A stretch of 64,000 nt of DNA from Leucoraja erinacea (lineage: Eukaryota). Where the stretch lies: assembly GCF_028641065.1 (NCBI RefSeq), contig NC_073414.1:8246001-8310000 (forward strand), written 5' to 3'. Both the position numbers and the translations under genes were made by a program. The notes under the pieces are model-generated. The model made no database searches. It saw nothing but the letters and a program-made list of their open reading frames with translations, and had not been told where the DNA came from. Below are positions 30,486 through 57,164 of this stretch, in pieces (position 1 is the stretch's first letter; the number at the start of each line of letters is the position of its first letter).

Positions 30486-30803
30486 ATGGTGGTGAAACAT
30501 GTAGTGGACGCCAAGCAGCTCCAGCACCTGTTCAGCCAGACCGAGAACCTGGTGGCGGTCATGTACTCTGCCGAGTGGTGCAACAACTGCCGCATGATCC
30601 GCCCGCACTTCTACAACCTGGCCGAGCAGATGCCCAACGTGACCTTCGTGGAGGTGGACGTGGACGACGCCGAGCCGCTGGCCCGCTCGGCCGGCATCAC
30701 CTGCATGCCCACCTTCCACTTCTTCAAGCGCTCCACCAAGATGGGCGAGTTCTCGGGGACCAAGAGGGACAAGCTGGAACATCTGATCGATGAGCTGCAG
30801 TGA
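30486..30803 (+). CDS. Intronless thioredoxin-like protein 1 (105 aa, WCNNC)
   Basis: Colinear with vertebrate cytosolic TXN over its full length (W-CxxC..I.P.F..L....NV.F.EVDVDD...CMPTF.FFK...K.GEFSG..K.KLE..I.EL). Kozak gcaATGG. Intact stop. AATAAA at 30924. Confidence 0.9.
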   Translation: MVVKHVVDAKQLQHLFSQTENLVAVMYSAEWCNNCRMIRPHFYNLAEQMPNVTFVEVDVDDAEPLARSAGITCMPTFHFFKRSTKMGEFSGTKRDKLEHLIDELQ

Positions 30804-30989
30804 GCGGCCTGTTAAAACACTTGGGAGGGTTTTGGGTGGGGGGGTGGGGTGGGGGAGTGAAAAACAAAGAAAGGAAAAAAGAATTAAACTGAGGTTTGTC
30901 TGCCTTGTGTAGAAAAGCCCCAGAATAAATAAACCCACAACTAAAAGAATTGCAACCCGTGAAGGTCTTCTTCAGGCAAAATATCTTGA

Positions 30990-31268
30990 CATGTTCAAGA
31001 AGGAACTGCAGGTGCTAGCAGAATCCAAGGTAGACAAAAATGCTGGAGAAACTCAGCGGGTGAGGCAGCATCTATGGAGCGAAGGAAATAGGCAACGTTT
31101 CAGGTCAAAACACTTCTTCAGACTTGATGTGTTTCCGTCTGAAGAAGGGTCTCGCCCCAAAACATCGCCTATTTCCTTCGCTCCATAGATGCTGCCTCAC
31201 CCGCTGAGTTTCTCCAGCATTTTTGTCTACCTTTGTTTAAACCAGCATCTGCAGTTCCTTCCTACACA
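30990..31268. mobile_element. Palindromic pair of Penelope terminal repeats
   Basis: 'aaggaactgcag..ctcagcgggtgaggcagcatc..cttcttcagac' followed by its reverse complement; flanked by the repeated tatcttga. Confidence 0.7.
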
Positions 31269-31584
31269 AAGTATCTTGATGTTTGAGGAGCTATGAAGAT
31301 GGACACAAAATGCTGGAGTAACTCAGAGGGACAGGCTGGGAGAACTCAAGAGAGAAGGGATGGATGGGTGACAATTTGGGTCGAGACCTTGGTTTACTAA
31401 AAAAAACAAGCATATGGTGCAGGAGTAACTGGTCTCCCAACACCATCTCTCTCAATTACTATCCCTCTGTGATTCCCACTACTTTCCTGCTCTTCGATCA
31501 ACTCGGAGATGAGGAAAAACGTTTTCACACCCAGAGAGTTGTGAATCTGTAATTCTCTGCCGCAGAAGGCAGTGGAGGCTTTTA

Positions 31585-32440
31585 AGGCCCTGTCCCACTT
31601 TCCCGAGTTACATAGAAAATAGGTGCAGGACTAGGCCATTCGGCCCTTCGAGCTTGCACCGCCATTCAATGTGATCATGGCTGATCATCCCCAATCTGTA
31701 CCCCGTTCCTGCCTTCTCTCCATATCTCCTGACTCCACTATCTTTAAGAGCCCTATCTAGCTCTCTCTTGAAAACACCCTGAGAGGCAGAGAATTCCACA
31801 GCCAAATCCGCCATTCAATCGTGGCTGATCTATCTATCTTTGCCTTAAAAATATCCATTGACTTGGCCTCCACAGCCTTAGAAACATAGAAACATAGAAA
31901 ATAGGTGCAGGAGAAGGCCATTCGGCCCTTCGAGCTTGCACCGTCATTCAATATGATCATGGCTGATCATCCAACTCAGTATCCTGCACCTGCCTTCTTC
32001 TCCATACCCCCTGATCCCTATAGCCACAAGGGCCACAACTAACTCCCTCTTAAATATAGCCAATGAACTGGCCTCAACTACCTTCTGTGGCAGAGTATTC
32101 CAGAGATTCACCACTCTCTGTGTGAAAAATGTTTTTCTCATCTCGGTCCTAAAAGATTTCCCCCTTATCCATAAACTATGACCCCTTGTTCTGGACTTCC
32201 CCAACATCGGGAACAATCTTCCTGCATCCTACTCACGTATTCTCCCGAGTTTTCCCCTTGATTCAAACTCGGAGAATTACGGTAAAAACCAGCCGTAGGT
32301 ACCCAAGGCTATTTTGTTGTACTCGTGGACATTTTTCAACATGCTGAAAAAACGTCCCGACTTTACCCGATGCCCCGAGTACCAACGGCTGGCATTACGA
32401 GCTGCTACAAAATATCTACGGCCTCCTACGGACTCTTTGG
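31585..32440. mobile_element. PIF/Harbinger-like MITE interrupted by CR1 fragments
   Basis: Terminus aggccctgtcccact; internal 'ttctcccgagttttccccttgattcaaactc' resumes at ~32230, as in the copy at 42651. Confidence 0.6.
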
Positions 32441-32924
32441 GCTAAGGGAAGCAAGGGATATGGGGGGGAATGCCGGAAAAGGGTACTGATTCTGCATTGA
32501 CTGGCGGTGCTGGCTCGAAGGCGGTGCACCTACTTTCTATGTTTCTATGTCCTGACCTCCAGAGATGCTGCCAGACCCTGTGAGTTACTCCAGCACTGTG
32601 TGTCTTTTGATGTGTGAGCATCAGCAGTTGTTGCCCACTGATGGAATCACCAAGGGTTATTGATGGTGGGCGACATCTTGAATACAATTGTGGGCGTTTT
32701 GGTTCAGTCCTGTGACCTCCTTAGCCAATGTAAGAATCAATGGTTTTGATTTACGGGTGACAACCGGTATGTTGAAAGGATGAGAGACTTAAATACTAGT
32801 ACTTGTGTTTTTTTTAAAGAAAATTTTGAAATGAAAGAAAAGTGCTGTCATGAACTGAAATGAAAGAAAAAGCAAGTCAGCCACATTCTCAGGAGGCAGA
32901 CTCAACAATAACTAAAAAGTTTCT

Positions 32925-33235
32925 CCAAAATCCACAAACTTGACTGTCCTGGCAGACCCATTGTTTCTGCCTGTTCGTGTCCCACTGAACTTATTTCCAC
33001 ATACCTCGACTCCATCCTATCCCCCCTGGTTAAATCCCTCCCCACCTATGCTCAAGACACCTCCCATCTACTCCATGACATCCGTTTTCCAGGCCCCCAT
33101 TCCCTCATCTTCACCACGGATGTCCAGTCACTCTACACCTCCATCCCCCACCAGGAGGGTCTTAAGGCCCTCCGATTATTCCTCGACCGCAGAACCAACC
33201 AATCCCCGTCTACTGATACTCTCCTCCGCCTAGCG
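32925..33235 (+). mobile_element. Penelope-like reverse transcriptase fragment
   Basis: Reads 'KIHKLDCPGRPIVSACSCPTELISTYLDSILSPLVKSLPTY', then 'IFTTDVQSLYTSIPHQEGLKAL'; these are PLE RT motifs (KIHK...RPIVS, DV.SLYT.IP). Confidence 0.8.
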
Positions 33236-34142
33236 GAAAAAAAAAGATTTCCCAGCATCTGCAGTTCCTTCTTAAACACTGTAACTAAATTGTTAACTGC
33301 TTCCTCCAGGACAAGGGGTCACAGCTTAAGGATAAGGGGGAAATCCTTTAAAACCGAGATGAGAAGAACTTTTTTCACACAGAGAGTGGTGAATCTCTGG
33401 AACTCTCTGCCGCAGAGGGTAGTCGAGGCCAGTTCATTGGCTATATTTAAGAGGGAGTTAGATGTGGCCCTTGTGGCTAAAGGGGATCAGGGGGTATGGA
33501 GAGAAGGCAGGTACAGGATACTGAGTTGGATGATCAGCCATGATCATATTGAATGGCGGTGCAGGCTCGAAGGGCCGAATGGCCTACTCCTGCACCTAAT
33601 TTCTATGTTTCTATGTTTCTTAATACACAGAATGCTGCTTGACCTGTTGAGGACTTTGTATTTGTGATACAGTGTGGAAACAGGCCCTTCAGCCCAACCT
33701 GCCCACATCGGCCAACATGTCCCATCTACACTAGTCCCAACTGCCCACGTTTGGTCCATATCCCTCCAAACCTGTCCTATCCATGTACCTATCTAACTGT
33801 TTCGTAAATGTTAGGATAGTCCCTTGCCTCAACTACTTCCTCTGGCAGCTTGTTCCATACACCCACTACCCTTTGAGTGAGAGTTATCCCTCAGATTCCT
33901 ATTAAAATGTTAGTAGGCATAGAGTTATGCAGCACAGAAACAGGCCCTTCAGCACAACCATGCCGACCTCGATGCTTCATCTACACTAGTCCTACCTGCC
34001 TGTGCTTGGCCCATATATCCGTCTAAACCTTATCATGTCCATGTACTTGTCCAAATATCTATCCAACTGTCTGAAGAAGGGTCTCGACACGAAACATTAC
34101 TCGTTCCTTTTCACCAGAGATGTTCCCTGACCCGCTGAGTTA

Positions 34143-34412
34143 AGGGTCTGTCCCACTGTACGAAGTAATTCAAGAGTTCTCCCGAGTTTCCCCTGATTCG
34201 AACTCGGGAGAATTACGGGAATAGCCGGCCGTAGGTACTCGGAGCTCTCGTGGACATTTTTCAACATGTTGAAAAATCTCCACGAGACTTCACGAGCTTA
34301 CCGTTTCCCCAGTGTCTGCCATTAGCGTTATAAGCCGCTAAGAGACGTCCCCGAGCACCGACGTACCCGCTACGTACATTCTACGTGCTTCCAGGAGTTT
34401 GATTTTTTTTTA
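34143..34412. mobile_element. PIF/Harbinger-like MITE (partial)
   Basis: Terminus agggtctgtcccact; the body is the reverse complement of 42804-43130. Confidence 0.6.
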
Positions 34413-36265
34413 AATTTTGTTCTATATGTCAACCACCCTCTGTGTACAAACCCTTCTTCTCAGGTTCCTGTTAAATCGTTCTATAATTTCAAAAATCTAC
34501 AATTTCTTTTAAAAATCTATGATTGTTTGATAACCGTATAGTATGGATTATAGAAGAGATTAGGAATAGGTCTGAATTTTGTTCACATTCCCAGAAGGTC
34601 CCAATGTATACTTTCCGCAGTGGTTTGTCTATCAGAAGTGAATGCCAATCCAAAAAAATCTAGACCAGTAATTAAGCCATGTTGAGTAGAAATCAAAAAC
34701 TACAGGTGCTGGAAATTTAACTACAGATTTGGCCCGACCTGAGAATATTTCCAGCATTGCTGAGAGAATGGAGCAGCTGGGCTTGTACACTCTGGAGTTT
34801 AGAAGGATGAGAGGAAATCTCATTGAAACATATAAGATTGTTAAGGGCTTGGACATGCTAGAGGCAGGAAACATGTTCCCGATGTTGGGGGAGTCCAGAA
34901 CCAGGGGCCACACAGTTTAAGAATAAGGGGTAAGCCAATTAGAACGGAGACGAGGAAACAATTTTTCTCACAGAGAGTGGTGAGTGTGGAATTCTCTGCC
35001 TCAGAGGGCGGTGGAGGCAGGTTCTCTGGATACTTTCAAGGGAGAGCTAGATAGGGCTCTTAAAAATAGCGGAGTCCGTGGATGAGGGGAGAAGGCAGGA
35101 ACGGGGTACTGATTGGGGATGATCAGCTGTGAACACATTGAATGGCGGTGCTGGCTCGAAGGGCCGAATGGCCTACTCCTGCACCTATTGTCTATTGTCT
35201 ATTATTTGAGGCATGTACTGCAACTCATCAATAACCGACTCTTTAATCTTGCCAACATTGAGGGACAGGTTATTGTCTTGACACATAGAGGATCTAATTG
35301 TCACACATACCTACAAGGGAACAATGAAACTCCTTCTTGCAGCAGCTTACGAACCTGTAAATGGAATAGTATGCAGATAATATGTCATCAAAAATATGAT
35401 AAATCAGTAACCATGTACTAGGTAACTCAGGTGCATGAACCAAAGTCCATGGTGCAACCAAGGACACTGTCCATGGAAGATTATGGCTGTTGAGGTTAGT
35501 GTTATGTAGTGTTCAAGACCCTTGCTGGCAAGGAGCCGTTCTTGAACCCGATGGTCAGGGTCCTGTAGTACATTCCCGATAGAAGGGGTGAAATGAGAAT
35601 ATGGCCAGGGTGGTGTGGACCTTTAGCCCAGTTAGTCCATACTGACTGTCAACCACTCATTCTCCTTAACTATTATCAGATTCCTGTAATGTCTCCCCTC
35701 TCACACACCAGGGGCAATTTGCAGTGTGCAATTCACCTGTGCATCTTTGGGGACATGGGAAGAAAACCAAAACAACGAGAGGAAACACTCACAGTCACAG
35801 GGAGAATATGCAAACTCCACACAGACAGCACTGGAGATCAGCATTGAACCCAGGTTACTGGAGCTGTGAGGCAGCAGCTGTGTTTTGACCCCACACACAG
35901 CTACCAACGGCCTGTTTCCTTTATCATCGTTACTTTTTTGCATATCTTTCATTCGTTATTCTTTATCTCTCCACATCATCGTCTGTATCTCTCGTTTCCC
36001 TTGTTTCTAACCAGTGTGAAGAAGGGTCTCAACCCGAAACGTCACCCATTCCTTCTTTCCAGAGATGCTGCCTGTCCCGCTGAGTTACTCCAGCTTTTTG
36101 TGTCTATCTTCGGTTTAAACCAGCATCTGCAGTTCCTTTTTATGCATTTTGTCGTGCCACTGTGCACTCCGAGACATTTAAATCCTATACACAGGAGCTC
36201 CACTACTAACCACTCCATTTGATCAGACCTTTTAGTTATCCCTTTCCAATATCTGCTTTGGCCGA

Positions 36266-37355
36266 TGAAATTGATAAAGCCGAATTTTGGTTAAAAATAT
36301 AAGAAGATATTAAATTGGCCTCTGGGCTAGCTTACAGCTTATATTTAGTCTCAGATTAGGCTTGCCTCAGGTTGCGGTGGGTGAGATAATAAATACTATA
36401 ACATTGTCTCCCAAGTGACAAGCAGAGAAGGAGCTAGATAGGTCTCTTTGATGTATTGGAAAAGTAAGATGTTGTAAACCAAATGTCCTATGTTTATGAG
36501 GGAGGAGGTGACGAGAGAGGAAGCAGAGAAGGAGCTAGAGTGATCTCTTTGATGTAAGATGCCTGGCACCAAGTGGCCTATGTTTATGAGGGAGGAGGTG
36601 ACGAGAGAGGCTAGATCTCTTTGATGTATTTGAAAAGTAAGATGTTGTAAACCAAGTGTCCTATGTATATGAGGGAGGAGGTGACGAGAGAGGAACCAGA
36701 GAAGTAACTAGATCTCTTTGTTTAAGAGGGAACTGCAGATGCTGGAGAATCGAAGGTTACACAAAAAAGCTGGAGAAACTCAGCGGGTGCAGCAGCATCT
36801 GTGGAGCGAAGGAAATAGGCAACGTTTCGGGCCAAAACCCTTCTTCAGACTGAAGGAAATAGGCAACGTTTTGGGCCGAAACCCTTCCGGGTTTCGGCCC
36901 GAAACGTTGCCTATTTCCTTCGCTCCATAGATGCTGCTGCACCCGCTGAGTTTCTCCAGCTTTTTTGTGTAACTAGATCTCTTTGATGTATTTGAAAACT
37001 AAGATGACATAAACCAAATGGCCAATGTTTTTAATTTATCCTGTACCATGTGACAAAATGCCTTTGATGTGATGCATTCTGTAGAAACCTTTTCCTGTAC
37101 CTCTGACCATGACTAATGTCTATCGAATGTGCTAAGGTGACAAAAAACCCCACTATGTAATGCAATGTAATTCTGTTGTTCAGAGAAGTGGACTGAGGAC
37201 AGTGAAGTGTCTACATTGATCACTTGACTGGAGTTCTCCCTCCCTTCCATCGGCCGATAATAAGTAAAGTTTTGAACTGGTCTACCAAACAGTTTGTGTG
37301 TTGTCTGTTTATTAAGAAGCGAACCTGTTTAGTTGTTATAAAAGTAACTTTTTCA
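36266..37355 (+). mobile_element. Possible solo LTR with internal tandem repeats and a nested Penelope palindrome
   Basis: TGAAA...TTTCA ends; three copies of 'tatgtttatgagggaggaggtgacgagagagg'; U5-like GT-rich end. No TSD seen. Confidence 0.35.
36721..36968. mobile_element. Palindromic Penelope terminal-repeat insertion
   Basis: Inverted copies of the terminal repeat flanked by the exact 17-bp duplication gtaactagatctctttg (36704-36720, 36969-36985). Confidence 0.8.
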
Positions 37356-37924: not shown

Positions 37925-38092
37925 TGAATGAAGGAATGAAGGATTGATGAATTAATGAAGGAATGAATGGAGGATGAAATGAAGGAATGAATGAATTAAT
38001 GAAGGGATGAATGGAGGATGAAATGAAGGAATGAATGAATTAATGAAGGAATGAATGGAGGAATGAAGGAAGGAACAAATGAATGAAAATGA
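37925..38092. repeat. (GAAT/GGAA)n low-complexity repeat
   Basis: Tandem gaat/gaag units running into a gap. Confidence 0.9.
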
Positions 38093-40962: not shown

Positions 40963-42168
40963 GGATTATAGATATTCCAGGTTTTTGTCGCTGTAATTCT
41001 TTGCCCCGGTTCTATTCTGAGCCTGGATTGTGCCCGTAAAACAATGCCAATGCAAGTTTCCACAAAGGTGGTAGAGCTGCTGCCTCACGTTCGCCAGGGA
41101 CCCGGGTTCGATCCTGACCACGGGCGCTGTGTCTGTGTGGAGTTTGCACGTTCTCCCCGTGACCTGCGCGGGTTTTCTCCGGGTGCCCCTGTTTCCTCCC
41201 ACACTCCATAAGGCCGACAGGTTAATTGACTTGGGTAAAATTGTCAATTGTCCCTAGTGTGTGTAGGGTAGTGTTACGAACATTCTGCTAGTTTGAAGGG
41301 AGGGGGAAACTCGGGAGAATTCGTGAAAAACCTCGGGAAAGTGGGACAGGCCCTTCGGCGTGGGCCGAAGAGCCTGTTTCTGCGCTGTATCTAAAATCAA
41401 ATCATTTCTTTGTACCTACTTTCCAGACGTCCCTCCTTGGTCTAAACTTGTTTTTATTTGGGTCCTCCCATTCTCTCCACCAACAAAGTCCCTCGGCTGC
41501 CGAGGACGTTTCAGACGTTTGAGAGACCAGATAGACAGGATCAAATATCTTACTCCGCTCTAAGATCTTCGGACAGGATGTTTTTCGCTCCTTGCTGGAT
41601 CTTTCAGGCTCTGAACCGCTCCCTTCCCCTCCCGAGAGTGGGTGGCCCGCTCCGAGGAGAGGTTGGTGTGGGTGTAGGTGGAGGAAGGAACCGCAGAGGC
41701 TGGGTTAAACCGAAGGTAGATATTGCTAAAAGCTGGAGTAACTCAGCGGGACAGGCAGAGAAGGAATGGATCCACCAATGGGTCCACTCAGCCCGAAACG
41801 TTGCCCATTTCCTTCGCTCCATAGATGCTGCTGCACCCGCTGAGCTTCTCCAGCTTTTTTGTGTACCTTCGATTTTCCAGCATCTGCAGTTCCTTCTTGA
41901 GCACCAATTCCTTCTCTCCAGAGATGCTGCCTGTCTCGCTGACTGGGTTACTCCAGCTTTTAGCAGTGTCTATAGGTTCTTTGGTGTGTGTCTATGTTCG
42001 GGTGAGGTTCAACGTGTGTAATTCGTTCTGTTGATACCAGAGGTGGTGATGTACAAGAGTTGGACTTGGTTTGCAATGACGGCCCTGGACGTCACTATCG
42101 GCTAGAGGTTGCACCAGGGGGCAGCCCGGGGACGTGGACATTGCACAAAGTGTTACCATCGCGGCAGG

Positions 42169-42489
42169 ATGGTGTTGAGACCCATCAGGACCAGGCGGCA
42201 GCTCGCCACGCTGCTGGAGGAGGAAGAGGAGTCCCTGGTGGTGGTCTTCTTCGGGGCCAAATGGTGCAACAACTGCGCTAGCATCAAACCCTACTTCAAG
42301 ATGAAATCCGACCAGAACCGCGACGTCATCTTCGCCGAGGTGGACGTGGATGAGTCGGAGGATTTGGCCAGGGCTGTGGGCATCACCTGCATGCCCACCT
42401 TCCACTTCTATAGATGCCAGGAGAAGGCTGGAGAGTTCTCTGGGACCAAGAGGGAGAAATTGGACCGCCTGATAGCGCAGTTGAAATAA
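42169..42489 (+). CDS. Intronless thioredoxin-like protein 2 (106 aa, WCNNC)
   Basis: Full TXN-fold sequence 'LVVVFFGAKWCNNCASIKPYF...VIFAEVDVDESEDLARAVGITCMPTFHFY...GEFSGTKREKL'. ATG in aggATGG. ATTAAA at 42518. Confidence 0.9.
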   Translation: MVLRPIRTRRQLATLLEEEEESLVVVFFGAKWCNNCASIKPYFKMKSDQNRDVIFAEVDVDESEDLARAVGITCMPTFHFYRCQEKAGEFSGTKREKLDRLIAQLK

Positions 42490-42650
42490 CACCGCCGCGT
42501 TTTAATCTTCAAAAATGATTAAATGGACTTGTCCAATTACCCTAGGAAGGAATTCGGCTCATCGAGTCTATGCCAGCTCACAGAGCCAAGCATCCCCACT
42601 CCTTTATCATTTCCTCTATAACTGAAGATAGACACTAAACGCTGGAGTAA

Positions 42651-43363: not shown

Positions 43364-45925
43364 TAACTCAGCGGGACGGGCAGCATCTCTGGAGAGAAGG
43401 AATGGGCGACGTTTCGGGTCGGGACTCGAGACCCTTCTTCAGTCGCCCGAGATTCTACATAAGGATATCTGGGGCACCAGGGCCAATTAAACTAACACAT
43501 CCAGATGTGAGGGAGGATTCAGGGGTCACAATCAGAATGGGCGAACTCCACACAAGGTAGGTATCCGAGGTAAGGATTGAACCTGGGTCACTGCGGTTGT
43601 GAGGCGGCAACTCTCCTGGGCAGCCCCTTGCACATAGACTCGCATTTCACAGACTTGTACCCAGGGAAGTCTGTGCAGATTCTTTGAAAGCCATTCATTA
43701 GTTATAAGTTGTAGAAACAAAGAACTGCAGATGCTGGTTTATACCAAAGATAGACACAAAGAGCTGGAGTAATTCAGCCGGTCAGGCAGCATCTCTGAAG
43801 GAAAGGAATAGGTGACATTTTGGGTCGCGACCGTTTGTCAGAATTCATGAACTATTTGCAAGTTCTCGCTCCTTTCCACTAAAGTCTTTTTTGTTTATCC
43901 ACTCTAAGCTAATATCTAGATTCCATTCTGAAAGCTACTACAGGCAGTGGATGTCAGACGTTAACTTGCAACATTCTCTGGCAAGAACCAAAACGCTGAA
44001 AGACCTCAGCCGGACAGTATCGGTGGAGGGAATGGGACAAGCAACGTTTCGGGTTGGGACCCTTCTTCTGTTTTTTTCACACAGAGAGTGGTGAATCTCT
44101 GGAACTCTCTGCCACAGAGGGTAGTTGAGGCCAGTTCATTGGCTATATTTAAGAGGGAGTTAGATGTGGCCCTTGTGGCTAAGGAGATCAGGGGGTATGG
44201 AGAGAAGGCAGGTACGGGATACTGAGCTGGATGATCAGCCATGATCATATTGAATGGCGGTGCAGGCTCGAAAGGCCGAATGGCCTACTCCTACTCCTAA
44301 TTTCTATGTTTCTATGTTTCTATGTATGATTGAGGAGAGGCGAGACAACTGTGGGGGGGGGGGGGGGGGGGAGATAGGTTGGGGCAAGAGGTAGATAGCA
44401 AGTGACAGGTGGATCCAGGTGAGGAGGGTGGGGAAAATAAAATAATTAAAATGGTGAAATCTGAAAAGGAAGGAAAGTGGGGAATGAAATGTAGACAATA
44501 GGCAATAGACAATAGGTGCAGGAGTAGGCCATTCGGCCCTTCGAGCCAGCACCATCATTCAATGTGATCATGGCTGATCATCCCCAATCAGTATCCCGTT
44601 CCTGCCTTCTCCCCACATCACCTGACTTCACTTTCTTTAAGCCCTATCTAGCTCTCTAGTGAAAGTATCCAGAGAACCGGCCTCAGACTAACACAGGTCT
44701 CTGTGAGAAAAAAAGTGTTTCCTCATCTCCGTCAGTCCATCAGTCTTTTCAGTTGAGTTGAGTTGAGTTTATTTTCATGTGTCCATGTGTACAGTGAAAA
44801 GCTTTTGTTCAACTGAACCATAGGGAGGGATAGTGGGTACAAGGGAATGTGTGTGTTGTGAGGAGGGAGAGAGAAGAACAAATGAAGACCTGGGTAGGAA
44901 GATGAGCAGACGGGGAGGTAGATGAAGGGAGCTAGAGTCAGGAAACATGTTACTGATGTTGGGGGAGTCCAGAACCAGGGGCCACAGTTTGAGAATAATG
45001 GGGAAGGCCATTTATAAAGTAGAGGAATAACTTTTTCACCCAGAGAGTTGTGAGTCTGTTGAATCCTTTGCCTCAGAAGGTGATGGATGACAATTCTCTT
45101 GATGCTTTCAAGAGAGTTTGATAGAGTTCTTACAGACAGCAGAGTCGGGGCATATGGGGAGAAGGTAAGAACAGCGAACTGATTTTGGATGATCAGCCAT
45201 GATCACATTGATTGTGGTGCTGGCTCGAAGGGCCGAATGGCCTACTCTTGCACCTATTGTCTATTGAAAGGAATGGGGTGATGGGGCAGGAGGAATGGAA
45301 ATTAAGTTGTGTGCAGGTGAGGAGAAGGTGAGAGGTGGGGGGTTACATAAGGTTGGATATGTTGCAATGTTGATGCCATTGTGGAGTAGCCAAAGCACAA
45401 GCAAAATATGAGACGCTGTCCTTTCAGCTTGTGCGAGGCCCCATTCTGAAACATTTTGGAAGCCGAGGACATGTTCGATGATTCACTGCAAAATGTTTTG
45501 GAAGAATTGTATGATTTTAGAATACCTGCTTCTTAATTTCGAATACAAAAACACTGTGTTTGTGCAGCGTAGAGTTGCTGCCTCACAGCGCCAGAGACCC
45601 AGGCTCGATCCTGACAATGAGTGCTGTCTGTGCGACTTTTGTACCTTCTCCCCTTGACTGCGTAGGTTTCCTCCATGTGCTCTGTGTCCTCCCACATTTC
45701 AAAGACGTGCAGGTTTGTAATTTCTCAGCATATTGTAATTGGCATCTAAATTGCCCCTGGTGAGAGACATGCACAATAGGCAATAGACAATAGGTGCAGG
45801 AGGAGGCCATTCGGCCCTTCGAGCCAGCACCGCCATTCAATGTGATCATGGCTGATCATCCCCAATCAGTACCCCGTTACTGCCTTCTCCCCATATCCCC
45901 TGACTGCTATTTTTAAGAGCCCTAT

Positions 45926-46664
45926 CATTGAGGATAAATGGGGATACTGTGGATAGGGTGAGCGGTTTTAAATACCTGGGAGTCCACATCTCTGAGGATA
46001 TGACATGGACATCACACGCCGCAGCACTCGTGAGTAAGGCAAGGCAGCGCCTTAACCACCTTAGGCAATTGAGGAAATTCAGAGTGTCTCCGAGGATCCT
46101 CCAGTGCTTCTACTCAGCGGCTGTGGAAAGCATCTTGTCCAGAAATATTACCATCTGGTTTGGGGATTGCTCTGCCCAGGACAAGAAGGCTCTGCAGAGA
46201 GTAGTGCGTTCAGCCGAACGCACTATGGGAACTTCACTCGCCCCCCTGCAGGAACTATACATCAGAAGGTGCAACTCCAGAGCAAATAAAATCATGGGAG
46301 ACCCCTTCCACCCCTGCAACGGACTGTTCCAGCTGCTATGGTCAGGCAAACGCCTCCGTTGCCATGCTGTGAGAACGGAGAGGTTGAGAAGGAGTTTCTT
46401 CCAAGCGGCCATTAGGACTGTAAACTCCTATCTCACCAGGGACTAACTTTACTGAACCACTCTACTGCTTTTTTTTTATTTGCTGTCCCTTAATTTTCCC
46501 TTTTTCCTTCCGCCCACAATACTTAATATGTAAAATATGTGATTCTGTTTGTAGTTTGTTTGTTTGTTTGTTTTGTTTGCACAAAGTCCGCGAGCATTGC
46601 CACTTTTCATTTCACTGCACATCTCGTATGTGTATGTGATGAATAAACTTGACTTGACTTGACT
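45926..46664 (+). mobile_element. Rex1/Babar LINE 3' fragment inserted in a CR1 fragment
   Basis: ORF 45928-46446 'FKYLGVHISEDMTWTSH...KARQRL..LRQLRKF...ESILS..ITIWFG'. (CTTGA)n tail. The host 'gagccctatc|tagctctctc' is split. Confidence 0.88.
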
Positions 46665-48985: not shown

Positions 48986-49072
48986 ACACTGGTTTATACA
49001 TAGACCCCCCCCATTTCAGGGCACCATAATGTTTGGGACACAGTAATGTCATGTAAATGAAAGTAGTCATGT

Positions 49073-50000
49073 TTAGTATTTTATTGCATATCCTTTGCAT
49101 GCAATGACTGCTTGAAGTCTGTGATTCATGGACATCACCAGTTGCTGGGTGTCTTCTCTGGTGATGCTCTGCCAGGCCTGTATTGCAGCCACCTTTAGCT
49201 TATGCTTGTTTTGGGGACTAGTCCCCTTCAGTTTTCTCTTCAGCATATAAAAAAACATGCTCAATTGGGTTCAGATCAGGTGATTGACTTGGCCACTCAA
49301 GAATTTATCATTTTGTAGCTTTAGCAGTATGTTTGTGATCATTGAACCACTAGCCAATGAGTTTTGAGGCATTTGTTTGAACTTGAGTAGATAGGATGTG
49401 TCCATACACTTCAGAATTCATTATGCTACTGCCATCAGCAGTTGTATCATCAATGAAGATAAGTGAGCCAGTGCCTTCAGCAGCCATACATGTCCAGGCC
49501 ATATCACCTCCACCACCAGCGTGTTTCACAGATGTTATGCTTTGGATCTTGGGCAGTTCCTTCTCTCCTCCATACTTTGCTCTTGCCATCACTCTGATAT
49601 AAGTTAATCTTCGTCTCATCTATCCACAAGACATTTTTCCAGGTCATCCTATTTTTGCAGCTAACCAGTGGTTTGCATCTTGCAGTGTAGCCTCTGTATT
49701 TCTGTTCATGAAGTCCACACCTGACTCCTGAAGAGTGGTTTCGATCTGTTGGACAAGTGTTTGGTGATTTTTCTTTATTATAGAAATAATTCTTCTGTCA
49801 TCAGCTGCGGAGGTCTTCCTTGGCCTGCCAGTCCCCTTGCAATTCACAAGCTCACCAGTGCTCTCTTTCTTCTCAATGATGTTCCAAACAGTTGATTTTG
49901 GTAAGCCTATGGTTTGGCTGATGTCTCTAACAGATTTATTCTTGTTTCTCAGTCTCATAATGGTATCTTTGACTTTCATTGGCACAACTTTGGCCCTCAT
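49073..50000 (-). pseudogene. Tc1 transposase pseudogene
   Basis: Fragments 'MRAKVVPMKVKDTIMRL..ISQTIGLPKSTVWNII..GRPRKTS', '[20 protein letters not shown]' and 'QAWQSI..LVMSMNHRLQAVIACKGYAIKY' lie in different frames. Confidence 0.88.
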
Positions 50001-50899
50001 GTTGATAAACAGCAATAAAAGTTTCCAAAGGTGATGGAAAGACTGGAGGAAAGACTAGGTGCTGAGAGCTCTCTTATACCTGCATTAAGGAGGCATTTAA
50101 ACACACCTGAGCAATTACAAACGCCTGTGAAGCCATGTGTCCCAAACATTATGGTGCCCTGAAATGGGGGGACTATGTTTAAACACAGCTGTAATTTCTA
50201 TATGGTGAAATAAAAATGTATAAAAATGGCCTTTATTGAAATGCCCGTCGGAAACCAGCACCACTGGGTCACAAATGTTTTGAACGATTTAATAATAATA
50301 ATAATAATAATAATTTATTAAAATCTATCAATGTGTACTTTAACCACATGTGATTTTTTTTTTCTATTACAAATCTCAAATTGTGGAGTACAGAGGCACA
50401 TAAATAAATGACGGGTCTTTGTCCCAAACATTATGGAGGGCGCTGTAAGTCTGAAAAACAGCAAAGAAATTCAGACCTGAAAAAACTGGTTCGCCTGCTC
50501 CGATCGCGGGAGAATAAAGAGGAAAGAAGTTGGACTTTATTGCCTTCCATCACAGTGAGGAACGTGAGGAATACGCTGTGATGGATGTTTATTTAACTTT
50601 TATGTAGTTCAAAGGTTTCAAATGTCTTTTATTGTCACGTGTACCAATTAAGGTACTGTGGCGGCTTTTGTGCCTCTGGTTCTGGGGGGGGGGGTCCTGT
50701 GGCGGCTCCTAAGGGTCGTCCCATTATACTGCCGAACCCCTCGGCACAGGAGTGGTGCAGTCCGGAGGCGGTCCTTAGCCGGAGGGTATAAAAGGCAGGG
50801 TTTGGGTGCCATCTTTTCCTGGTTTCGTCTTCCCCTGAACCGGGAGGAATTAAAGTAAAGTGCTTCTCAAACTTCGGACTACTTGCCTCATTTTGAGAC

Positions 50900-51562
50900 C
50901 CACGCACTACAGTACAGTGATATGCGAATTACCATACAGCCATACTAAAAAAAACAGCAAGACACACATCTACATGAAAGTTAACATAAACATCCACCAC
51001 AGTGGATTCCCCACATTCCTCACTGTGAAGGAAGGCAATAAAGTCTAATCTTCTTCCCTCATGTTTCTCCCGCGGTCGGGACAGTTGAACCATGCATTGG
51101 GGCAGTCAAACCATGCGTCGGGGCAGTCAAACCTCCTGTGTCGGGGCAGTCGAAGTTCCTGCGGCTTGGAGTTCCCGAAGTCGGTCTCTGACCAGAGACC
51201 GCGAGCTCCATGATGTTAAAGTCCGCAGGCACCTGCGGTGAAGCTCAGAGGTCGATCCCTGGCAAAGGGATCGCGGGCTCCGGGATGTTAAAGTCCCGCC
51301 GTTGAGCTCTCGAAGTCGGTCTCCGGCAAAGGCCGCCAACTCCTCGATGTTAGGCCGCAGTGCGGTCGGAGATACGACACGGGGAAAAAAAATCACATCT
51401 CCTTTGAGGTAAGAGACTCAAAAAAGTTTCCCCCACCCCCACATAAAACAAGCTAAAAAAACACTAAAAACAGACATTTAACACCATACTAAAACAAAAA
51501 CCAACGAAGAAGAAAGGGACAGACAGACTGTTGGCGGGGCAGCCATTGCTGGCGCCACCTGG
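50900..51562 (-). mobile_element. Non-autonomous GC-rich retroelement, same family as 16218-16940
   Basis: Shared conserved block and head (...gacagactgttggcggggcagccat...ggcgccacctgg). Confidence 0.55.
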
Positions 51563-52467
51563 TTGTGTAACTTGTTGCTTTTTAAAATATTATGGCTTTA
51601 TGGTAATTCAAATTTCACTGTACCTTAATTGGTACATGTACCAATAAACTGATCTTGAAACCTTAACTTGTAGTAAGGAGAATGAATAGTGCATTTCAAA
51701 AACTAGCTTGATCAAAAATAATGGCATTTGTGGACATTAAAAACCAACGCCTCCACTTCCTTAAAAGGCTTAGGAAGTTCAGCATGTCCCCCAACAACTC
51801 TCACCAACTTCTACAGATGCACCACCGCCAGCTTTGGGAGTCAGCTCCATCCAAAACATGCACCAAACCTCAGAGAGTTGCGGAAGTAACCCAGACTTCC
51901 ACACAGACCAGCCTCCCTTCCATGGACTCCATCTACGCTACATGCTCACTGGGTAAGGCCAACAGCGTGATCAAGGACCAGTCTCACCTCGGTCATTCCA
52001 TCTTCTCCCCTCTCCCATCAGGTGGCAGATACAGACGTTTGCAAACACATACCTCCAGATTCAGGAACAGTTTCTTCCCATCAGGCAACTGAATGGTCCT
52101 CTCATCAGCTAGAGTGCGGTCCTGACTTCCCATCTATATCAGTCTGAAGATGGGTCTCGACCCGTAAGGTCACCAATTCAATCTCTCCAGAGACGCTGCC
52201 TGTCCCGCTGAGTTACTCCAGCATTTTGTGTCTATCCTCCCATCTGCCTCTTTGGAAACATTTAAGCTTCATTGAAATGGACTTTATCGTACTTCATTGT
52301 TATATCTTGGCACTAAATGTTGTATCATTTGACTGTGCACTGTGTACAGCTGGTTGTGTACATGTAGTCTTTTCTCTGCCCGGACAGTACACATACAAAA
52401 TGGTTTTCACTGTATCTTGGTACACGATACAATAATAAACTAAACTAAATATCCAGACCAGACTAAA

Positions 52468-52920
52468 TATCTTCGCCCAACACCTTCGCTCAGTTCGCAA
52501 TAACCAACCTGATCTCCCGGTGGCTCAGCACTTCAACTCCCCCTCCCATTCCGAATCCGACCTTCCTGTCCTGGGCCTCCTCCATGGCCAGAGTGAGGCC
52601 CACAGTAAATTGGACGAGCATCACCTCATATTTCACTTGCGTAGTTTACACCCCAGCGGTATGAACATTAACTTCTCCAATTTCAGGTAGTCCCTGCTTT
52701 CTCCCTCTTTCCCCTCCCCTTCCCAGCTCTCCCACAGCCCACTGTCTTTGCCTCTTCCTTTCTTCTTCCTGCCCCCACCACCCCCACATCAGTCTGAAGA
52801 AGGGTCTCGACCCGAAACGTCACCGTTTCCTTCGCTCCATAGATGCTGCCTCACCCGCTGAGTTTCTCCAGCATTTTTATCAACCTTAAATTTTTCCAGC
52901 ATCTGCAGTTCCTTCTTAAA
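52468..52920 (+). mobile_element. Penelope-like element 3' end
   Basis: 'F..HLRSVRNNQPDLPVAQHFNSPSHSESD...' GIY-YIG C-terminus plus terminal repeat. Confidence 0.8.
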
Positions 52921-55084
52921 TATCCAGAGTAGCTCGATTCATTATGAACATTGCTGCCTAGAATCAGAATCTACTCAAGATACGATTGCTCAGTTTGACC
53001 CGCGGACTTCGTTTCTTGAGGTTAGTAAAGTTAGTAAAGTACATTCACCAAGCCAAGATTCTCCCAGCAGATGTAGTCAGTGGCTAAACACTAAACGCTC
53101 AAAGGTAAGATGAAAGATAACTGCTGTTCTTGGAACGATTTGGTGTGCATTGAAACTTCACGTGTGTGGCCACTGAAGAAGGAAAGACAACAGCGACTAA
53201 GTGGGAGGGATGAGATTGACTGGAACAACAAGAGCTTTGCCGCACATATATATGCCACACTTGGTCAACCACAACTTGCAGCTAGATCCTTTAATATCGT
53301 AAAGGATTCAATAAATTGAATAAATAATAAATAATGGTTGACAAGTGGGGGTTAATGTTTGTCTATTGCTTTACAATTGTTTACTTATGTTTGGTTACTT
53401 AATATATGAAGTTTGTATGTGTATAATAGTTGTATGTATATATATGTCTGTAGGTATTATGGGAAATTGCCTGGGGTATTATTATTAATTAATTGCTCCA
53501 TAACAAATTTGATTTTTAAATATGGTAGAAGTGTTGGGGAAAAGTGGTGAGATTTAATAAGTTATTCTTCTTCTCACTCCTTTTCGAGCTTGTACAGACA
53601 CAGAGTTGGACATTGGAAATTTGCTTTTTGTTCTTTTCATTGCTTATAAATATTGATTGTAATGTCCAATTGTTTGATAATTTCGATTTTGTTACTATTA
53701 ATGTCTTTAATGTTTTTACTTGTTCGGAATAAATAAAATAAATAAACAAACAGATAAATAAATAAATAAATAAATGATCCACAAATAAATCAAGCAAAAT
53801 TTCACCCATTCCTTCTCTCTAGAGATGCTGCCTGTACCGCTGAGTTACTCCAGCTCAGATGGGAGATGGGTGTATGGAACAAGCTGCCAGAGGAGGTAGT
53901 AGAGGCAGAGACTATCCCAGCGTTTAAGAAACAATTAGACAGGTATATGGGTAGAACAGGTTTGGAGGGATATGGACACCGCAGACCGGTGGGACTAGTG
54001 TAGCTGGGACATGTTGGATGGTGTGGGCAAGTTGGGCAGAAGGCCCTGTTTCCGCACTGTATCGCTCCATAACAAACTGTATGGATACCGTTCTGCATTG
54101 CATCCCAATTGCTCTTCCAAATAGACACAAAATGCTGGAGTAACTCAGCGAAACAGGCGAGACTCATCTCTATCCAGAGATGCTGCCTGTCCCACTGAAT
54201 TACTCCAGCATTTTGTGTCTATCTTCGGTGTGTAACCAGCATCACGTACAGTTCCTTCCTACACAAATTACTTGTCCAAAATGCACTGTAATTCACAATG
54301 TAATACGCGAGTTTAGAAACAGGCCCTTCGGCCCACCGGGTCCGCGCCGACCAGCGACCCCCGCACATTAACGCCATCCTACACCCACTAGGGACATTTT
54401 GTTTTACATGTACCAAGCTAATTAACCTACAAACCTGTACGGCTTTGGAGTGTGGGAGGAAAATCGAAGATTTCGGAGAAACCCACAAAGATCATGGGGA
54501 GAGCGTACAAACTCCGTAAAGACAGCACCCATAGTCGGGATCAAACTCGGGTCTCCGGCGCTATCAGGCAGCAACTCCACCGTGACCGAGTTATAATCGA
54601 TGTGACATATCTGCATCTCCTGAGTTACCTTTGTCTTTCACAGCCTGGGCTCGCCGCTGACCTCTCACCCGCCGTCTCCGGCCACCATCTTAACGCTCGC
54701 TGGTCTCCACGACGAAGCCATGTCACAGTGGGAGGGGGGGGGGGGTGGGGGAACGGAGCAGCCGCACGTGCGCAGGCCCAGGCCCGGCTAGTTCCCGCTT
54801 GTCTGTCCTGCGCCTGGGATGAGGCGGGAAACCTCAGGATCTGGTGACCCGACACCAGCGCACACTCGCCCTAGTGTCACCCCCCCTCCTTGCCCCAAGA
54901 GGCTGACTGACCGCACCAATGATTCACCTTCAACCAGTCCAACTCGACAGGTCACGGCTCCCTCATCTTTTTCACTGGCACCTCCAACGGGACCCCACCA
55001 CTGGCCACATCTACCCATCTCCACCCCTCTCTGCTTTCCGCAGAGACCCCCTCCCTCCATAACTCCCAGTCCAACTCGTCCCTT

Positions 55085-55690
55085 CCCACCCAAACCAGCC
55101 CCTCCCCGGGTACTTGCCCCTGCAACCTGCGGCAGGAGATGCAACACCTGTCCCTTTACCTCCCCCTCCCTCGACTCCATCCAAGGATCTAAACAGTCTT
55201 TCCAGGTGAAGCAGAGGTTCACCACCACCTCCTCCAACCTCATCCACTGTTCTAGGTGTGGACTCCTGTATATCGGCGAGACCAAGTGCAGGCTCGGCGA
55301 TCGTTTCGCTGAACACCTCCACTCAATCCGCCTAAATCTTCTGGTGTCCCAGCACTTCAACTCCCCCTCCCATTCCCACACTGACCTTTCTGTCCTGGGC
55401 CTCCTCCACTGTCAGAGTGAGGCCCAGCGCAAATTGGAGGAATAGCACCTCGTATTTAACTTGGGTGTGAACATTGACTTCTCTAACTTCAAGTAACCCT
55501 TGCTTTCCCTCTCTCTCCATCCCCAGTTCTCCCACCTGTCTGACCGTCTCCAACTACATTCAATCTCTGTCCTGCCAACTCCCATGCCATCAGCTTGAAG
55601 AAGGGTCTCGACCCGAAACATCGCCCATTCCCTCTCTCCAGAGATGCTGCCTGTCCCGCTGAGTTACTCCAGCATTGTGTGTCTACCTGC
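55085..55690 (+). mobile_element. Penelope-like element GIY-YIG endonuclease remnant plus terminal repeat
   Basis: 'CGRRCNTCPF...SSNLIHCSRCGLLYIGETKCRLGDRFAEH', with a premature TAG at 55443. Confidence 0.85.
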
Positions 55691-55811
55691 AGAAGTCAAG
55701 GCGCCTTTCTTTCATTAAAATCGACGCGGGGGGGGGGGGGTGGAAGGTAGGAACAGGCCGCCTCACGGACAAGGTTCTAGTTTCATTCATTGTGCGGTTT
55801 TAGCAGTGGAA

Positions 55812-56492
55812 TTGGGCCTGAGGGTGACGTCACAGGGGCGGCAAGGGGGCCTGTGCGTGACGTCACAAGGGGGCAAGTGGGCCTGCGCGTGATGTCACAG
55901 GGGGGCAAGAGGGCCTGCGGGTGATGTCACAGGGGGGCAGACGGGAGGGAAGTGGGGCCTGAGCGTGATGTCACAGGGGGGCAAGAGGGCCTGAGCGTGA
56001 TGAAGAGGGCCACGTCACAGGGGGCAAGAGGGCCTGTGCGTGACGTCACAAGGGGGCAAGAGGGCCTGCGCGTGATGTCACAGGGGGCAGACGGGAGGGA
56101 AGTGGGGCCTGAGCGTGATGTCACAAGGGGGCAAGAGGGCCTGAGCGTGATGTCACAAGGGGGCAAGAGGGCCTGAGCGTGATGTCACAGGGGGGCAAGA
56201 GGGCCTGCGCGTGACCTCACAAGGGGGCGGGCCGGAGGGAAGTGGGCCTGCGCCTGACGTCACAAGGGGGCGGGCCGGAGGGGAGTGGGCCTGCGCGTGA
56301 CGTCACAAGGGGGCGGGCCGGAGGGAAGTGGGCCTGCGCGTGACGTCACAACAAGGGGGCGGGCCGGAGGGAAGTGGGGCCTGAGCGTGACGTCGCGGGG
56401 AACGGGCGGGGCGGAAATGTCCATGCGCCTGACGTCACAAAGGGCGTGGCGGCGGAAGCGGGGCCTGCGCACGACGTCACAAGGGGGCCTGG
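55812..56492 (+). repeat. GC-rich minisatellite (~31-45 bp units, core gggcctg(a/c)gcgtga(c/t)gtcaca(a)ggggg) forming the upstream region of thioredoxin-like gene 3
   Basis: About 17-18 tandem units; 7 perfect TGACGTCA and ~7 TGATGTCA. Proximal units add GGGGCGG and GGAAGT. Confidence 0.9.
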
Positions 56493-56549
56493 TTGGGCCG
56501 GGCCGGGCAGCACCGGCGGGGCGGAAGTGATCCGGACCGAGCCGAGCAC

Positions 56550-57164
56550 ATGGCGGGGGCGGGCAGCACGCTGGGCAAGCCCAAGAAGGGGCAGGGCAAG
56601 AGTGCGGAGAAGATCGCCACACAGAAGGGGCCGGCGGGCACGGCGGGAACGGCGTCGTCGACAGTGGCGGCAGCCGCGTCCCGCTCTCCCGACGCCGGCA
56701 CTTCCCGCGGCAAAGCGGGCAAAGCTCCTCCTCCGCCCAAGGCCGAGTCGCTGCCGGCCACCAAGAGCGACGAGGCGGCCAAGGCCCCGAAGGCGGCGGA
56801 GAAGACGGCGCCAGAGCCGGTGGCCAAGGCAGGGGAGGGGGTGCCGCTGAGGAAGATCAGCAGCAAGACTCAGCTGGACAAGTTCATCAAGGACGCGGGC
56901 GAGAAGCTGGTGGTCATCTTCTTCTCGGGCACCTGGTGCGAGACGTGTCAGAGCCTCAAGCCATACATGAGGGAGATGGCCCAGGTGAACACCAACGTCG
57001 TCTTCTTCTGTGAGGTGAACGTGGACGATTCGGAGGACACGGCAGAGGCTTGCGACATCGTGCACATCCCCACCTTCCAGTTCTACAAACAGGGGAAGAA
57101 AATAGCCGAGGTGCAGGATGACAACAAGGCATCGGTAGAGGACAAAATCAAGGAATTGAAGTAG
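56550..57164 (+). CDS. Intronless thioredoxin-domain protein 3 (204 aa; Lys/Ala/Pro-rich N-terminal tail, WCETC)
   Basis: C-terminal ~105 aa is colinear with TXN ('KISSKTQLDKFIKDAGEKLVVIFFSGTWCETC..LKPY..EVNVDD..CDIVHIPTFQFYKQGKKI'). Lies in a CpG-rich region. AATAAA at 57435. Confidence 0.9.
   Translation: MAGAGSTLGKPKKGQGKSAEKIATQKGPAGTAGTASSTVAAAASRSPDAGTSRGKAGKAPPPPKAESLPATKSDEAAKAPKAAEKTAPEPVAKAGEGVPLRKISSKTQLDKFIKDAGEKLVVIFFSGTWCETCQSLKPYMREMAQVNTNVVFFCEVNVDDSEDTAEACDIVHIPTFQFYKQGKKIAEVQDDNKASVEDKIKELK

What the first reader, a model, noticed from the sequence alone, without database searches (positions are those of the whole stretch)
30486..57164. Cluster of three intact, intronless, divergent thioredoxin genes
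Seen: three same-strand, uninterrupted TXN-fold ORFs within 27 kb. Each has a G at +4 after the ATG, an intact stop and a downstream AATAAA/ATTAAA, and each lies in otherwise heavily decayed transposon DNA. Established: canonical vertebrate cytosolic TXN is multi-exon with a WCGPC site, and the mammalian BLVRB region is not known to me to hold a TXN cluster. Inference: one retrocopy was tandemly duplicated and kept under selection, giving a lineage-specific thioredoxin subfamily. It may be germline or testis-biased, analogous to mammalian TXNDC2/TXNDC8.
Basis: partly seen in the sequence, partly recalled or inferred. Interest (0 to 1): 0.82.

Follow-up and report, generated by a model that had tools for sequence, protein, structure and literature searches.

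The report
Ancient shark-and-ray atypical thioredoxin gene trio
Three intron-free genes for unusual thioredoxin-like redox proteins sit in a row in this skate-like genome and are conserved in sharks and rays, suggesting a specialised and still unstudied disulfide-handling job, possibly in sperm formation.

Summary
Observation confirmed: three intact, uninterrupted thioredoxin ORFs on the + strand (A 30486-30803, WCNNC; B 42169-42489, WCNNC; C 56550-57164, WCETC with a disordered basic N-terminal tail), between an aftiphilin-like exon and the last exon of BLVRB. They are neither recent copies nor pseudogenes. A, B and C are three ortholog groups found together on one contig in 7 other sharks and rays, with B and an A-like half also in Callorhinchus. 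Batoid-shark identity (72-85%) matches or exceeds canonical TXN (73-80%). All 41 members examined lack Asp26 and Gly-Pro but keep Trp-CxxC and the cis-Pro position. New here: A and B share a TGACG-N8-CGTCA element about 80-90 nt upstream (its only two occurrences in 64 kb; traces in bamboo shark and manta models), and C lies behind an array holding 7 of the window's 8 full CREs. Best reading: a stem-chondrichthyan TXN retrogene, tandemly triplicated and retuned into CRE-driven specialised thiol-disulfide catalysts, plausibly for spermatids. Retro-origin is indirect, the parent is unresolved in trees, and expression and activity are untested. RefSeq labels them 'thioredoxin-like'; no paper on them turned up. 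New variant of a known kind.

The parts
30486..30803 (+). Gene A CDS, 105 aa single-domain thioredoxin-like; WCNNC; Met at position 26, Arg36, Cys73, Pro75
   Evidence: orthologs 81-97% identical
30405..30422 (.). TGACG-N8-CGTCA inverted pair of CRE half-sites, 81 nt upstream of the A start codon
   Evidence: 2 matches in window, 0.12 expected; compatible with the 5' extension of the C. punctatum A model at -80
30883..30933 (+). Candidate poly(A) signals of A (ATTAAA 30883; AATAAA 30924 and 30928)
   Evidence: weak against chance
42169..42489 (+). Gene B CDS, 106 aa single-domain thioredoxin-like; WCNNC; Phe at position 26, acidic run in helix 1, extra Cys in YRCQE
42077..42094 (.). TGACG-N8-CGTCA element 92 nt upstream of the B start codon; begins a 58-nt block 33/58 identical to the A upstream block
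   Evidence: same element compatible in the Mobula birostris B model at -119 with matching flank
42518..42523 (+). Candidate poly(A) signal of B (ATTAAA)
55813..56488 (.). GC-rich tandem array (32-44 nt units) upstream of C: 7 TGACGTCA, 7 TGATGTCA, 4 GGGGCGGG boxes; CpG-island-like at its proximal end
   Evidence: proximal two units also read through in the Amblyraja C model
56550..56840 (+). Gene C N-terminal extension (97 aa; Ala/Lys/Pro/Gly/Ser 73%; pI 10; predicted disordered; head MAGAGxxLGK conserved in 11 of 11 full-length orthologs)
56841..57164 (+). Gene C thioredoxin domain; WCETC (12 of 12 orthologs); Phe26, Gln36, His73, Pro75; Asp-Asp replaces the Gly91-Ala92 loop
57435..57440 (+). 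Candidate poly(A) signal of C (AATAAA)
62172..62329 (-). Neighbour: last coding exon of BLVRB, tail-to-tail with gene C (context, not part of the cluster)

Best explanation
A, B and C are functional, intronless thioredoxin-like genes forming a cluster specific to cartilaginous fishes. SHOWN: three separate ortholog groups, kept in the order A-B-C and conserved as strongly as housekeeping TXN; they retain the fold, Trp31-Cys32-x-x-Cys35 and Pro75, and have all lost Gly33-Pro34 and the buried Asp26. INFERRED (about 0.7): a spliced TXN mRNA was retroposed next to BLVRB in an early chondrichthyan, gained a CRE-type promoter, and was duplicated in tandem as DNA (C versus A/B, then A versus B, which still share a promoter element). 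INFERRED (about 0.65): they remain CxxC thiol-disulfide catalysts, but without Asp26 and Gly-Pro they should be slower, less reducing and narrower in substrate than TXN. A keeps the positive residues at 36 and 94 and the Asp58/60/61 patch that human Trx1 needs for TrxR1, so it may still be recycled by TrxR. C has an acidic active-site face and a basic disordered tail that could tether it to chromatin, microtubules or membranes. INFERRED (about 0.5): the CRE elements drive CREB/CREM-type expression in post-meiotic germ cells, where the proteins control disulfide formation in maturing sperm structures, working like mammalian Sptrx proteins without being their orthologs.
For: Intact ORFs and fold: pLDDT 94.5; TM 0.95 to human Trx. 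All three types on one contig in 7 other species, with locus tags in A-B-C order in two. Identity to sharks: A 81-85%, B 72-74%, C 74-81%, canonical TXN 73-80%. Asp26 and GP absent in 41 of 41 cluster proteins, present in 5 of 5 chondrichthyan TXN; in other named hits Asp26 in 71 of 76 and WCGPC in 75 of 76. Long stem branches followed by short crown branches. Canonical TXN lies on a different, larger contig in the two species where both were seen (Mobula birostris, Hypanus). Fused amniote models and chondrichthyan TXN isoforms switch sequence near codon 9, implying an intron in the parent. Promoter elements. TrxR1 contact residues from PMC8189816. Spermatid thioredoxins in mammals from PMC4492044 and PMC11276731.
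Against: No expression or activity data were obtained; the catshark tissue atlas supplement could not be read. CRE plus GC-box plus ETS sites in a CpG island are just as typical of ubiquitous or cAMP-inducible promoters (recalled). The C array is a tandem repeat, so its CREs are not independent, and half are the TGATGTCA variant. Trees do not resolve the parent: ABC as one clade 82/73, 75/75, 43/53; ABC with chondrichthyan TXN 84/88 and 80/82 but lost in the third tree; ABC plus TXNDC8-like units not rejected. A-versus-B dN/dS was 0.42/0.79 (NG86), uninformative because GC3 is 0.84-0.93. No type C was found in Callorhinchus. The effects of losing Asp26 and GP are recalled from other thioredoxins, not measured here.
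Confidence: 0.45

Rival explanations
1. Same genes and same origin, but somatic: CREB-driven, broadly expressed or stress-inducible redox proteins (for example in blood, liver or gill), unrelated to sperm.
For: CpG-island-like promoters with GC boxes and an ETS site at C; conservation as tight as housekeeping TXN, whereas sperm proteins often evolve fast (recalled); the neighbour BLVRB is a somatic redox enzyme.
Against: Canonical TXN is retained separately in these species. Retrogenes and divergent TXN paralogs in vertebrates are often testis-expressed (recalled; mammalian examples). Half of the array CREs show CpG-to-TpG decay, which implies methylation at some stage (inference).
Confidence: 0.27
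2. The proteins are redox-poor adaptors or scaffolds that use the thioredoxin fold for binding; the CxxC is structural or forms a stable disulfide.
For: Loss of Asp26 and Gly-Pro in 41 of 41 members. C replaces the Gly91-Ala92 groove loop with Asp-Asp and loses Lys36; K36E lowers TrxR1 efficiency to 21% in human Trx1. TXNDC8 is absent from the list of confirmed TrxR1 substrates in PMC8189816.
Against: Trp31, both cysteines and Pro75 are invariant across all aligned cluster members; scaffold-type thioredoxin folds usually lose one or both cysteines (Txnl4A DPTC, Txndc9 TFRC in the table).
Confidence: 0.15
3. Not a chondrichthyan retrogene but an older jawed-vertebrate paralog, possibly sharing ancestry with amniote TXNDC8, lost or unrecognised in bony vertebrates.
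For: AU tests do not reject ABC, C or A+B grouping with TXNDC8-like units (p 0.37, 0.39, 0.37). The dog unit also lacks Asp26.
Against: TXNDC8-like units keep WCGPC and are joined to TXN in fused gene models, so they lie beside TXN and are multi-exon. No CxNC or CETC single-domain protein among 79 named non-chondrichthyan hits; 1 WCENC three-domain protein among 139 further representatives. The free tree does not join them.
Confidence: 0.11
4. Recent processed pseudogenes or chance-intact copies.
For: Single-exon structure in repeat-rich DNA.
Against: One-to-one orthologs across sharks and rays at 72-97% identity with invariant active sites; only 40-45% identity to skate TXN; flanks share no similarity beyond CDS and promoter.
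Confidence: 0.02

Closest known systems
Vertebrate cytosolic thioredoxin TXN/Trx1
   Same: Length (105-106 aa for A and B), fold (TM 0.95), Trp31, Cys32/35, Asp60, Pro75, and Cys73 in A and B; best PDB match.
   Different: CxNC or CETC instead of CGPC, no Asp26, 40-45% identity to skate TXN, uninterrupted coding sequence, different chromosome in two species.
Mammalian TXNDC2 (Sptrx-1)
   Same: Gene C has the same layout: long low-complexity N-terminal part and C-terminal thioredoxin domain; RefSeq labels several C orthologs 'TXNDC2-like'; repeats have expanded in the tail in Pristiophorus and Heptranchias.
   Different: TXNDC2 has CGPC and is reported only in mammals. The C tail here is 97 aa with no internal repeat found; the TXNDC2 15-residue repeats are recalled. 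No TXNDC2 sequence was placed in a tree.
Amniote TXNDC8 (Sptrx-3)
   Same: Single-domain, fast-diverged TXN paralog; the dog unit also lacks Asp26; expressed in spermatocytes and spermatids.
   Different: Keeps CGPC; lies beside TXN and is multi-exon (inferred from fused models); not joined to A, B or C in the free tree.
Plant thioredoxins with N-terminal extensions (Trx h9 type)
   Same: Feature-space look-alikes of C at 0.91-0.92; extension plus thioredoxin domain.
   Different: Unrelated lineage, so a lead only. h9 is lipid-anchored via Gly2 (recalled), whereas C has Ala2-Gly3.

Membership tests
Thioredoxin fold / PF00085 | Profile score above the curated cut-off | tested here: met
   77.3, 66.7, 66.7 bits vs 23.5
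Thioredoxin fold / PF00085 | Thioredoxin strand-helix order with CxxC at the start of helix 2 and the cis-Pro position | tested here: met
   AlphaFold models; TM 0.95, rmsd 0.9 to 3m9j; Pro75 invariant. The cis geometry itself was not inspected.
Canonical TXN/Trx1 | WCGPC active site | tested here: not met
   0 of 41 cluster proteins; 5 of 5 chondrichthyan TXN
Canonical TXN/Trx1 | Buried Asp26 (role recalled) | tested here: not met
   Met in A, Phe in B and C, 41 of 41
Canonical TXN/Trx1 | Multi-exon coding sequence (five exons recalled) | tested here: not met
   uninterrupted ORFs
Canonical TXN/Trx1 | Reduced by thioredoxin reductase; reduces protein disulfides | not testable with these tools
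   only residue-level comparison with PMC8189816
TXNDC2 (Sptrx-1) | CGPC site | tested here: not met
   WCETC in 12 of 12 C proteins; TXNDC2 CGPC in the table of PMC6928294
TXNDC2 (Sptrx-1) | Long N-terminal repeat region before the domain | tested here: inconclusive
   disordered 82-128 aa tail in the orthologs; exact internal repeats in 3 of 11, none in the window copy
TXNDC2 (Sptrx-1) | Orthology by phylogeny | not tested
   no named TXNDC2 sequence was returned by the searches
TXNDC2 / TXNDC8 | Spermatid-restricted expression | not testable with these tools
   catshark expression tables unreadable
TXNDC8 (Sptrx-3) | CGPC site; multi-exon gene next to TXN | tested here: not met
   the cluster lies next to BLVRB
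TXNDC8 (Sptrx-3) | Orthology by phylogeny | tested here: inconclusive
   two partial TXNDC8-like units (label inferred); p-AU 0.37-0.39
Retrogene | No introns where the parent has them | tested here: inconclusive
   no introns here (met); parent introns shown only indirectly by isoform and fused-model breakpoints near codon 9
Retrogene | Dispersed away from the parent locus | tested here: met
   TXN and cluster on contigs of different length in 2 of 2 species where both were seen
Retrogene | Poly(A) remnant and target-site duplication | tested here: inconclusive
   none seen by eye after the poly(A) signals; not expected at this age
Processed pseudogene | Disablements and neutral decay | tested here: not met
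   intact in all orthologs read; conservation equal to or above TXN

The most novel reading that the evidence does not exclude
Cartilaginous fishes independently evolved their own spermatid thioredoxin kit some 400 million years ago: a retroposed TXN under a CREM-type promoter, triplicated and retuned (CxNC, CETC, no Asp26) into disulfide-forming or isomerising catalysts for cysteine-rich protamines or tail structures, with gene C converging on the tail-plus-domain layout of mammalian Sptrx-1. The conserved TGACG-N8-CGTCA element would be a paired half-site code for that expression.
Probability: 0.25. Interest if true: 0.72.

Novelty: new variant of a known kind. Interest (0 to 1): 0.5.

Why it matters
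If the germ-line reading holds, two internally fertilising vertebrate lineages with cysteine-containing sperm proteins separately built spermatid thioredoxins from TXN. That would make it testable why such proteins recur, given that the mouse Sptrx1/Sptrx2 double knockout is mild. Independently of tissue, A, B and C are natural, long-conserved variants lacking both Gly-Pro and Asp26, useful for studying how thioredoxin redox potential and reductase recognition are tuned. It also corrects annotation: the 'TXNDC2-like' label on C is architectural, not demonstrated orthology. If the genes prove somatic and TXN-like, this is a modest lineage-specific family expansion.

Tried and rejected
Fourth copy or fragments in the window: none. 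Recent segmental duplication: rejected, since blastn finds A-B and B-C similarity only in the CDS at 67-70%. Selenocysteine read-through of A's TGA (next codons would give Ala-Ala-Cys-stop): no Rfam family in the window at gathering score, the 3' UTR folds no better than shuffles (z 0.49), and orthologs end differently; rejected. dN/dS between paralogs A and B: distorted by GC3, YN00 failed; ortholog dN/dS impossible because no eukaryote DNA collection is available. Pfam scan of 299 of 313 non-repeat stop-free frames for other genes (14 left out, mostly overlapping the three genes or adjacent repeats): only transposon domains, two weak unrelated hits and a weak aftiphilin clathrin-box hit; it missed the BLVRB exon, found later by motif. 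The ESM Atlas added only generic thioredoxin clusters. The representative search was dominated by multi-domain thioredoxins. Literature: six accession numbers, 0 papers; thioredoxin + spermatogenesis + S. canicula + testis, 0; scylliorhinine terms, 0; searches returned nothing on this cluster in their listings. Subscription journals are mostly outside the library. No complex prediction was run because no binding claim is made.
Full report
OBSERVATION. A six-frame scan finds exactly three thioredoxin-type WCxxC ORFs on the + strand: A 30486-30803 (105 aa, WCNNC), B 42169-42489 (106 aa, WCNNC) and C 56550-57164 (204 aa, WCETC). All pass the Pfam PF00085 cut-off, and tblastn shows no further copy. 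The AlphaFold model of A has mean pLDDT 94.5 and superposes on human thioredoxin with TM 0.95. C has a confident domain from about residue 100 and an unstructured N-terminal part. The last coding exon of BLVRB lies tail-to-tail at 62172-62329. A weak aftiphilin clathrin-box exon lies upstream near 20000 (E 0.007, below cut-off). The species is hidden; A is 97% identical to its Amblyraja radiata ortholog, so a skate is inferred.

AN ANCIENT CLUSTER. All three proteins are in the public collection, each clustered with an Amblyraja protein of consecutive accession (XP_032870228, 227, 226). Searches with A, C and an alignment and cluster look-ups show all three types on a contig of the same length in 7 other species: Amblyraja, Pristis, Hypanus, Mobula hypostoma, M. 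birostris, Scyliorhinus torazame (one 102-kb contig, scyTo_0016845/44/43) and Chiloscyllium punctatum (chiPu_0009870/69/67). The locus tags give the order A-B-C in the last two. Two of the three types share a contig in S. canicula, Carcharodon, Heptranchias, Stegostoma, Hemiscyllium and C. plagiosum. Callorhinchus has a B ortholog (XP_042202698) and a UniProt model whose first half is A-like and whose second half is identical to B, probably a chimeric model. No Callorhinchus C was returned. In three trees A, B and C each form a group, and A+B are sisters at 98/94-98/95. The A/B split therefore appears older than the chimaera-elasmobranch split (about 400 million years, recalled). Window-versus-shark identity over the domain is 81-85% (A), 72-74% (B) and 74-81% (C), against 73-80% for canonical TXN between batoids and sharks.

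RANGE AND ORIGIN. One search listed the best 120 of 403 hits. Of 79 named non-chondrichthyan rows, 76 had a WCxxC, 75 of them WCGPC and none CxNC or CETC (18 rows, 16 unnamed and 2 doubtful, were left out). Among 139 further representatives one three-domain protein had WCENC and was not followed. No ortholog outside Chondrichthyes was seen, within these limits. The parent is not resolved. ABC formed one side of a branch at 82/73, 75/75 and 43/53. ABC with chondrichthyan TXN was 84/88 and 80/82, but dissolved when two partial TXNDC8-like units were added, and grouping with those units was not rejected (p-AU 0.37-0.39). Retroposition rests on three indirect points: the ORFs are uninterrupted; canonical TXN lies on a different, larger contig in M. 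birostris and Hypanus; and amniote fused models and chondrichthyan TXN isoforms change sequence near codon 9, implying an intron there (the five-exon structure of vertebrate TXN is recalled, and one search gave no paper for it).

PROTEIN ANATOMY. Trp31, Cys32, Cys35, Pro40, Asp60 and Pro75-Thr-Phe are invariant across 68 aligned sequences. In 41 of 41 cluster proteins Gly-Pro is replaced (xN in A and B, ET in C) and Asp26 is replaced by Met or Phe; 5 of 5 chondrichthyan TXNs keep both (duplicate and isoform models P0010, P0011, P0134, P0135, P0140, P0142 were not counted). From established thioredoxin chemistry (recalled), Asp26 assists proton transfer at the resolving cysteine and the inner dipeptide sets the redox potential, so slower, less reducing catalysts are expected; the kept proline argues against a metal site. 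PMC8189816 (passages and section 3.2 read) shows that TrxR1 needs positive residues at 36 and 94 and the Asp58/60/61 patch. A keeps Arg36, Arg94 and the patch. B has a small residue at 36. C has Gln36, Asn58, Glu33 and Asp-Asp at 91-92, a much more acidic face. C's tail is 73% Ala/Pro/Gly/Lys/Ser with pI 10 and variable length (82-128 aa), but begins MAGAGxxLGK in 11 of 11 full-length orthologs, suggesting a targeting signal.

7 of the 8 TGACGTCA palindromes in the window (0.67 expected) and all 7 TGATGTCA lie in a tandem array at 55813-56488, directly upstream of C, with GC boxes and an ETS-like site. The units are not independent. The proximal two are also read through in the over-long Amblyraja C model. 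TGACG-N6..10-CGTCA occurs twice in 64 kb (0.12 expected; 0 of 100 shuffles reach 2), both times with an 8-nt spacer, at -81 of A and -92 of B. It starts a 58-nt ungapped block with 33 identities (2 of 2000 shuffles and 4 of 2000 random windows reach this; the length was chosen after seeing the alignment). Over-long gene models allow an independent look. The 28-aa extension of C. punctatum A is compatible with the element at exactly one place, -80 (33 of 20000 random stretches are compatible at -84..-75). The 146-aa extension of M. birostris B is compatible at one place, -119, and aligns there to the window's B upstream region (2 of 2000 random windows score as high). The 18-aa Callorhinchus extension is too short to reach it, and the Amblyraja C extension lacks it. 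These are back-translation compatibilities, not DNA. They indicate that A and B duplicated with their promoter and that the element has been kept across sharks and rays.

HOW IT MOST LIKELY WORKS. Shown: a conserved three-gene cluster of retuned thioredoxins with CRE-type upstream elements. Inferred: retroposition, tandem triplication, a burst of change on the stems, then fixation; CxxC catalysis with altered potential and partners; CREB/CREM-driven expression. The tissue is the weakest step. CRE-driven post-meiotic expression through CREM is recalled. Mammals have several spermatid thioredoxins (PMC4492044, passages), and Sptrx-1 is linked to disulfide control in tail assembly and reported as mammal-only (PMC11276731, passages). 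Cysteine-containing sperm basic proteins in vertebrates are cited to a dogfish study in PMC11607694 (passages), and the disulfide-linked dogfish protamines themselves are recalled. But CRE, GC-box and ETS sites in a CpG island fit ubiquitous genes equally well. The catshark atlas PMC11979771 holds the needed tables in a supplement that could not be read; its main text does not mention thioredoxin (passages).

COMPARISON AND NOVELTY. These are members of the thioredoxin fold family, but not canonical TXN, and they fail the CGPC feature of TXNDC2 and TXNDC8 (table in PMC6928294, passages). RefSeq already predicts them as 'thioredoxin-like' or 'TXNDC2-like', so the genes are annotated but, in ten library searches, not described; PMC13134290 (passages) was irrelevant and PMC3316567 was seen only as a listing. 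Subscription journals, bioRxiv supplements and eukaryote genome DNA were outside reach, so intron structure, synteny and dN/dS in other species stay unchecked. Verdict: a real, old, selected, chondrichthyan-restricted thioredoxin subfamily with a conserved promoter signature; new variant of a known kind; interest 0.5.

Noticed in passing
window 12448-14028 (+) and about 19998-20124 (+): A 526-aa low-complexity ORF with internal tandem repeats (42-nt and 75-nt units) and acidic DDFGTF-type words, plus a spliced exon with a weak aftiphilin clathrin-box match (E 0.007): probably an aftiphilin/CLBA1-like gene upstream of the cluster.
   Followed up: partly
window 30801-30815: A's TGA is followed by codons for Ala-Ala-Cys-stop, which would give a UxxC motif if read through; no SECIS support, probably chance.
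   Followed up: yes
P0011 (UniRef A0A4W3GY17, Callorhinchus): The model has an A-like first half and a second half identical to the B ortholog P0027: likely a chimeric gene model, or gene conversion.
   Followed up: partly
window 42110-42128: A CTCF-like word (consensus recalled) inside B's conserved upstream block.
   Followed up: no
window 56550-56588: C begins Met-Ala-Gly-Ala-Gly-Ser-Thr-Leu-Gly-Lys, resembling an N-myristoylation motif shifted by one residue, followed by lysines; plant Trx h9 appears among feature look-alikes.
   Followed up: no
P0010 (Heptranchias A isoform X2): The annotated isoform continues past A's last residue, hinting at a splice donor overlapping the stop codon; the window has a GTGAG at that position.
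   Followed up: no
P0016, P0134, P0284: Over-long N-termini in the Amblyraja C, C. punctatum A and M. birostris B models appear to be promoter or 5' UTR read as protein, i.e. wrong start codons.
   Followed up: yes
window 49353-50054 (-); 45904-46443 and 51712-52089 (+): A Tc1/Sleeping Beauty-like transposase remnant, and two retroelement-type fragments matching the ALKBH8_N profile, lie between B and C.
   Followed up: no
P0025, P0029, P0030: Turtle, camel and dog models fuse a divergent upstream thioredoxin unit to TXN from codon 9; the turtle one is mislabelled inositol-trisphosphate 3-kinase B.
   Followed up: partly
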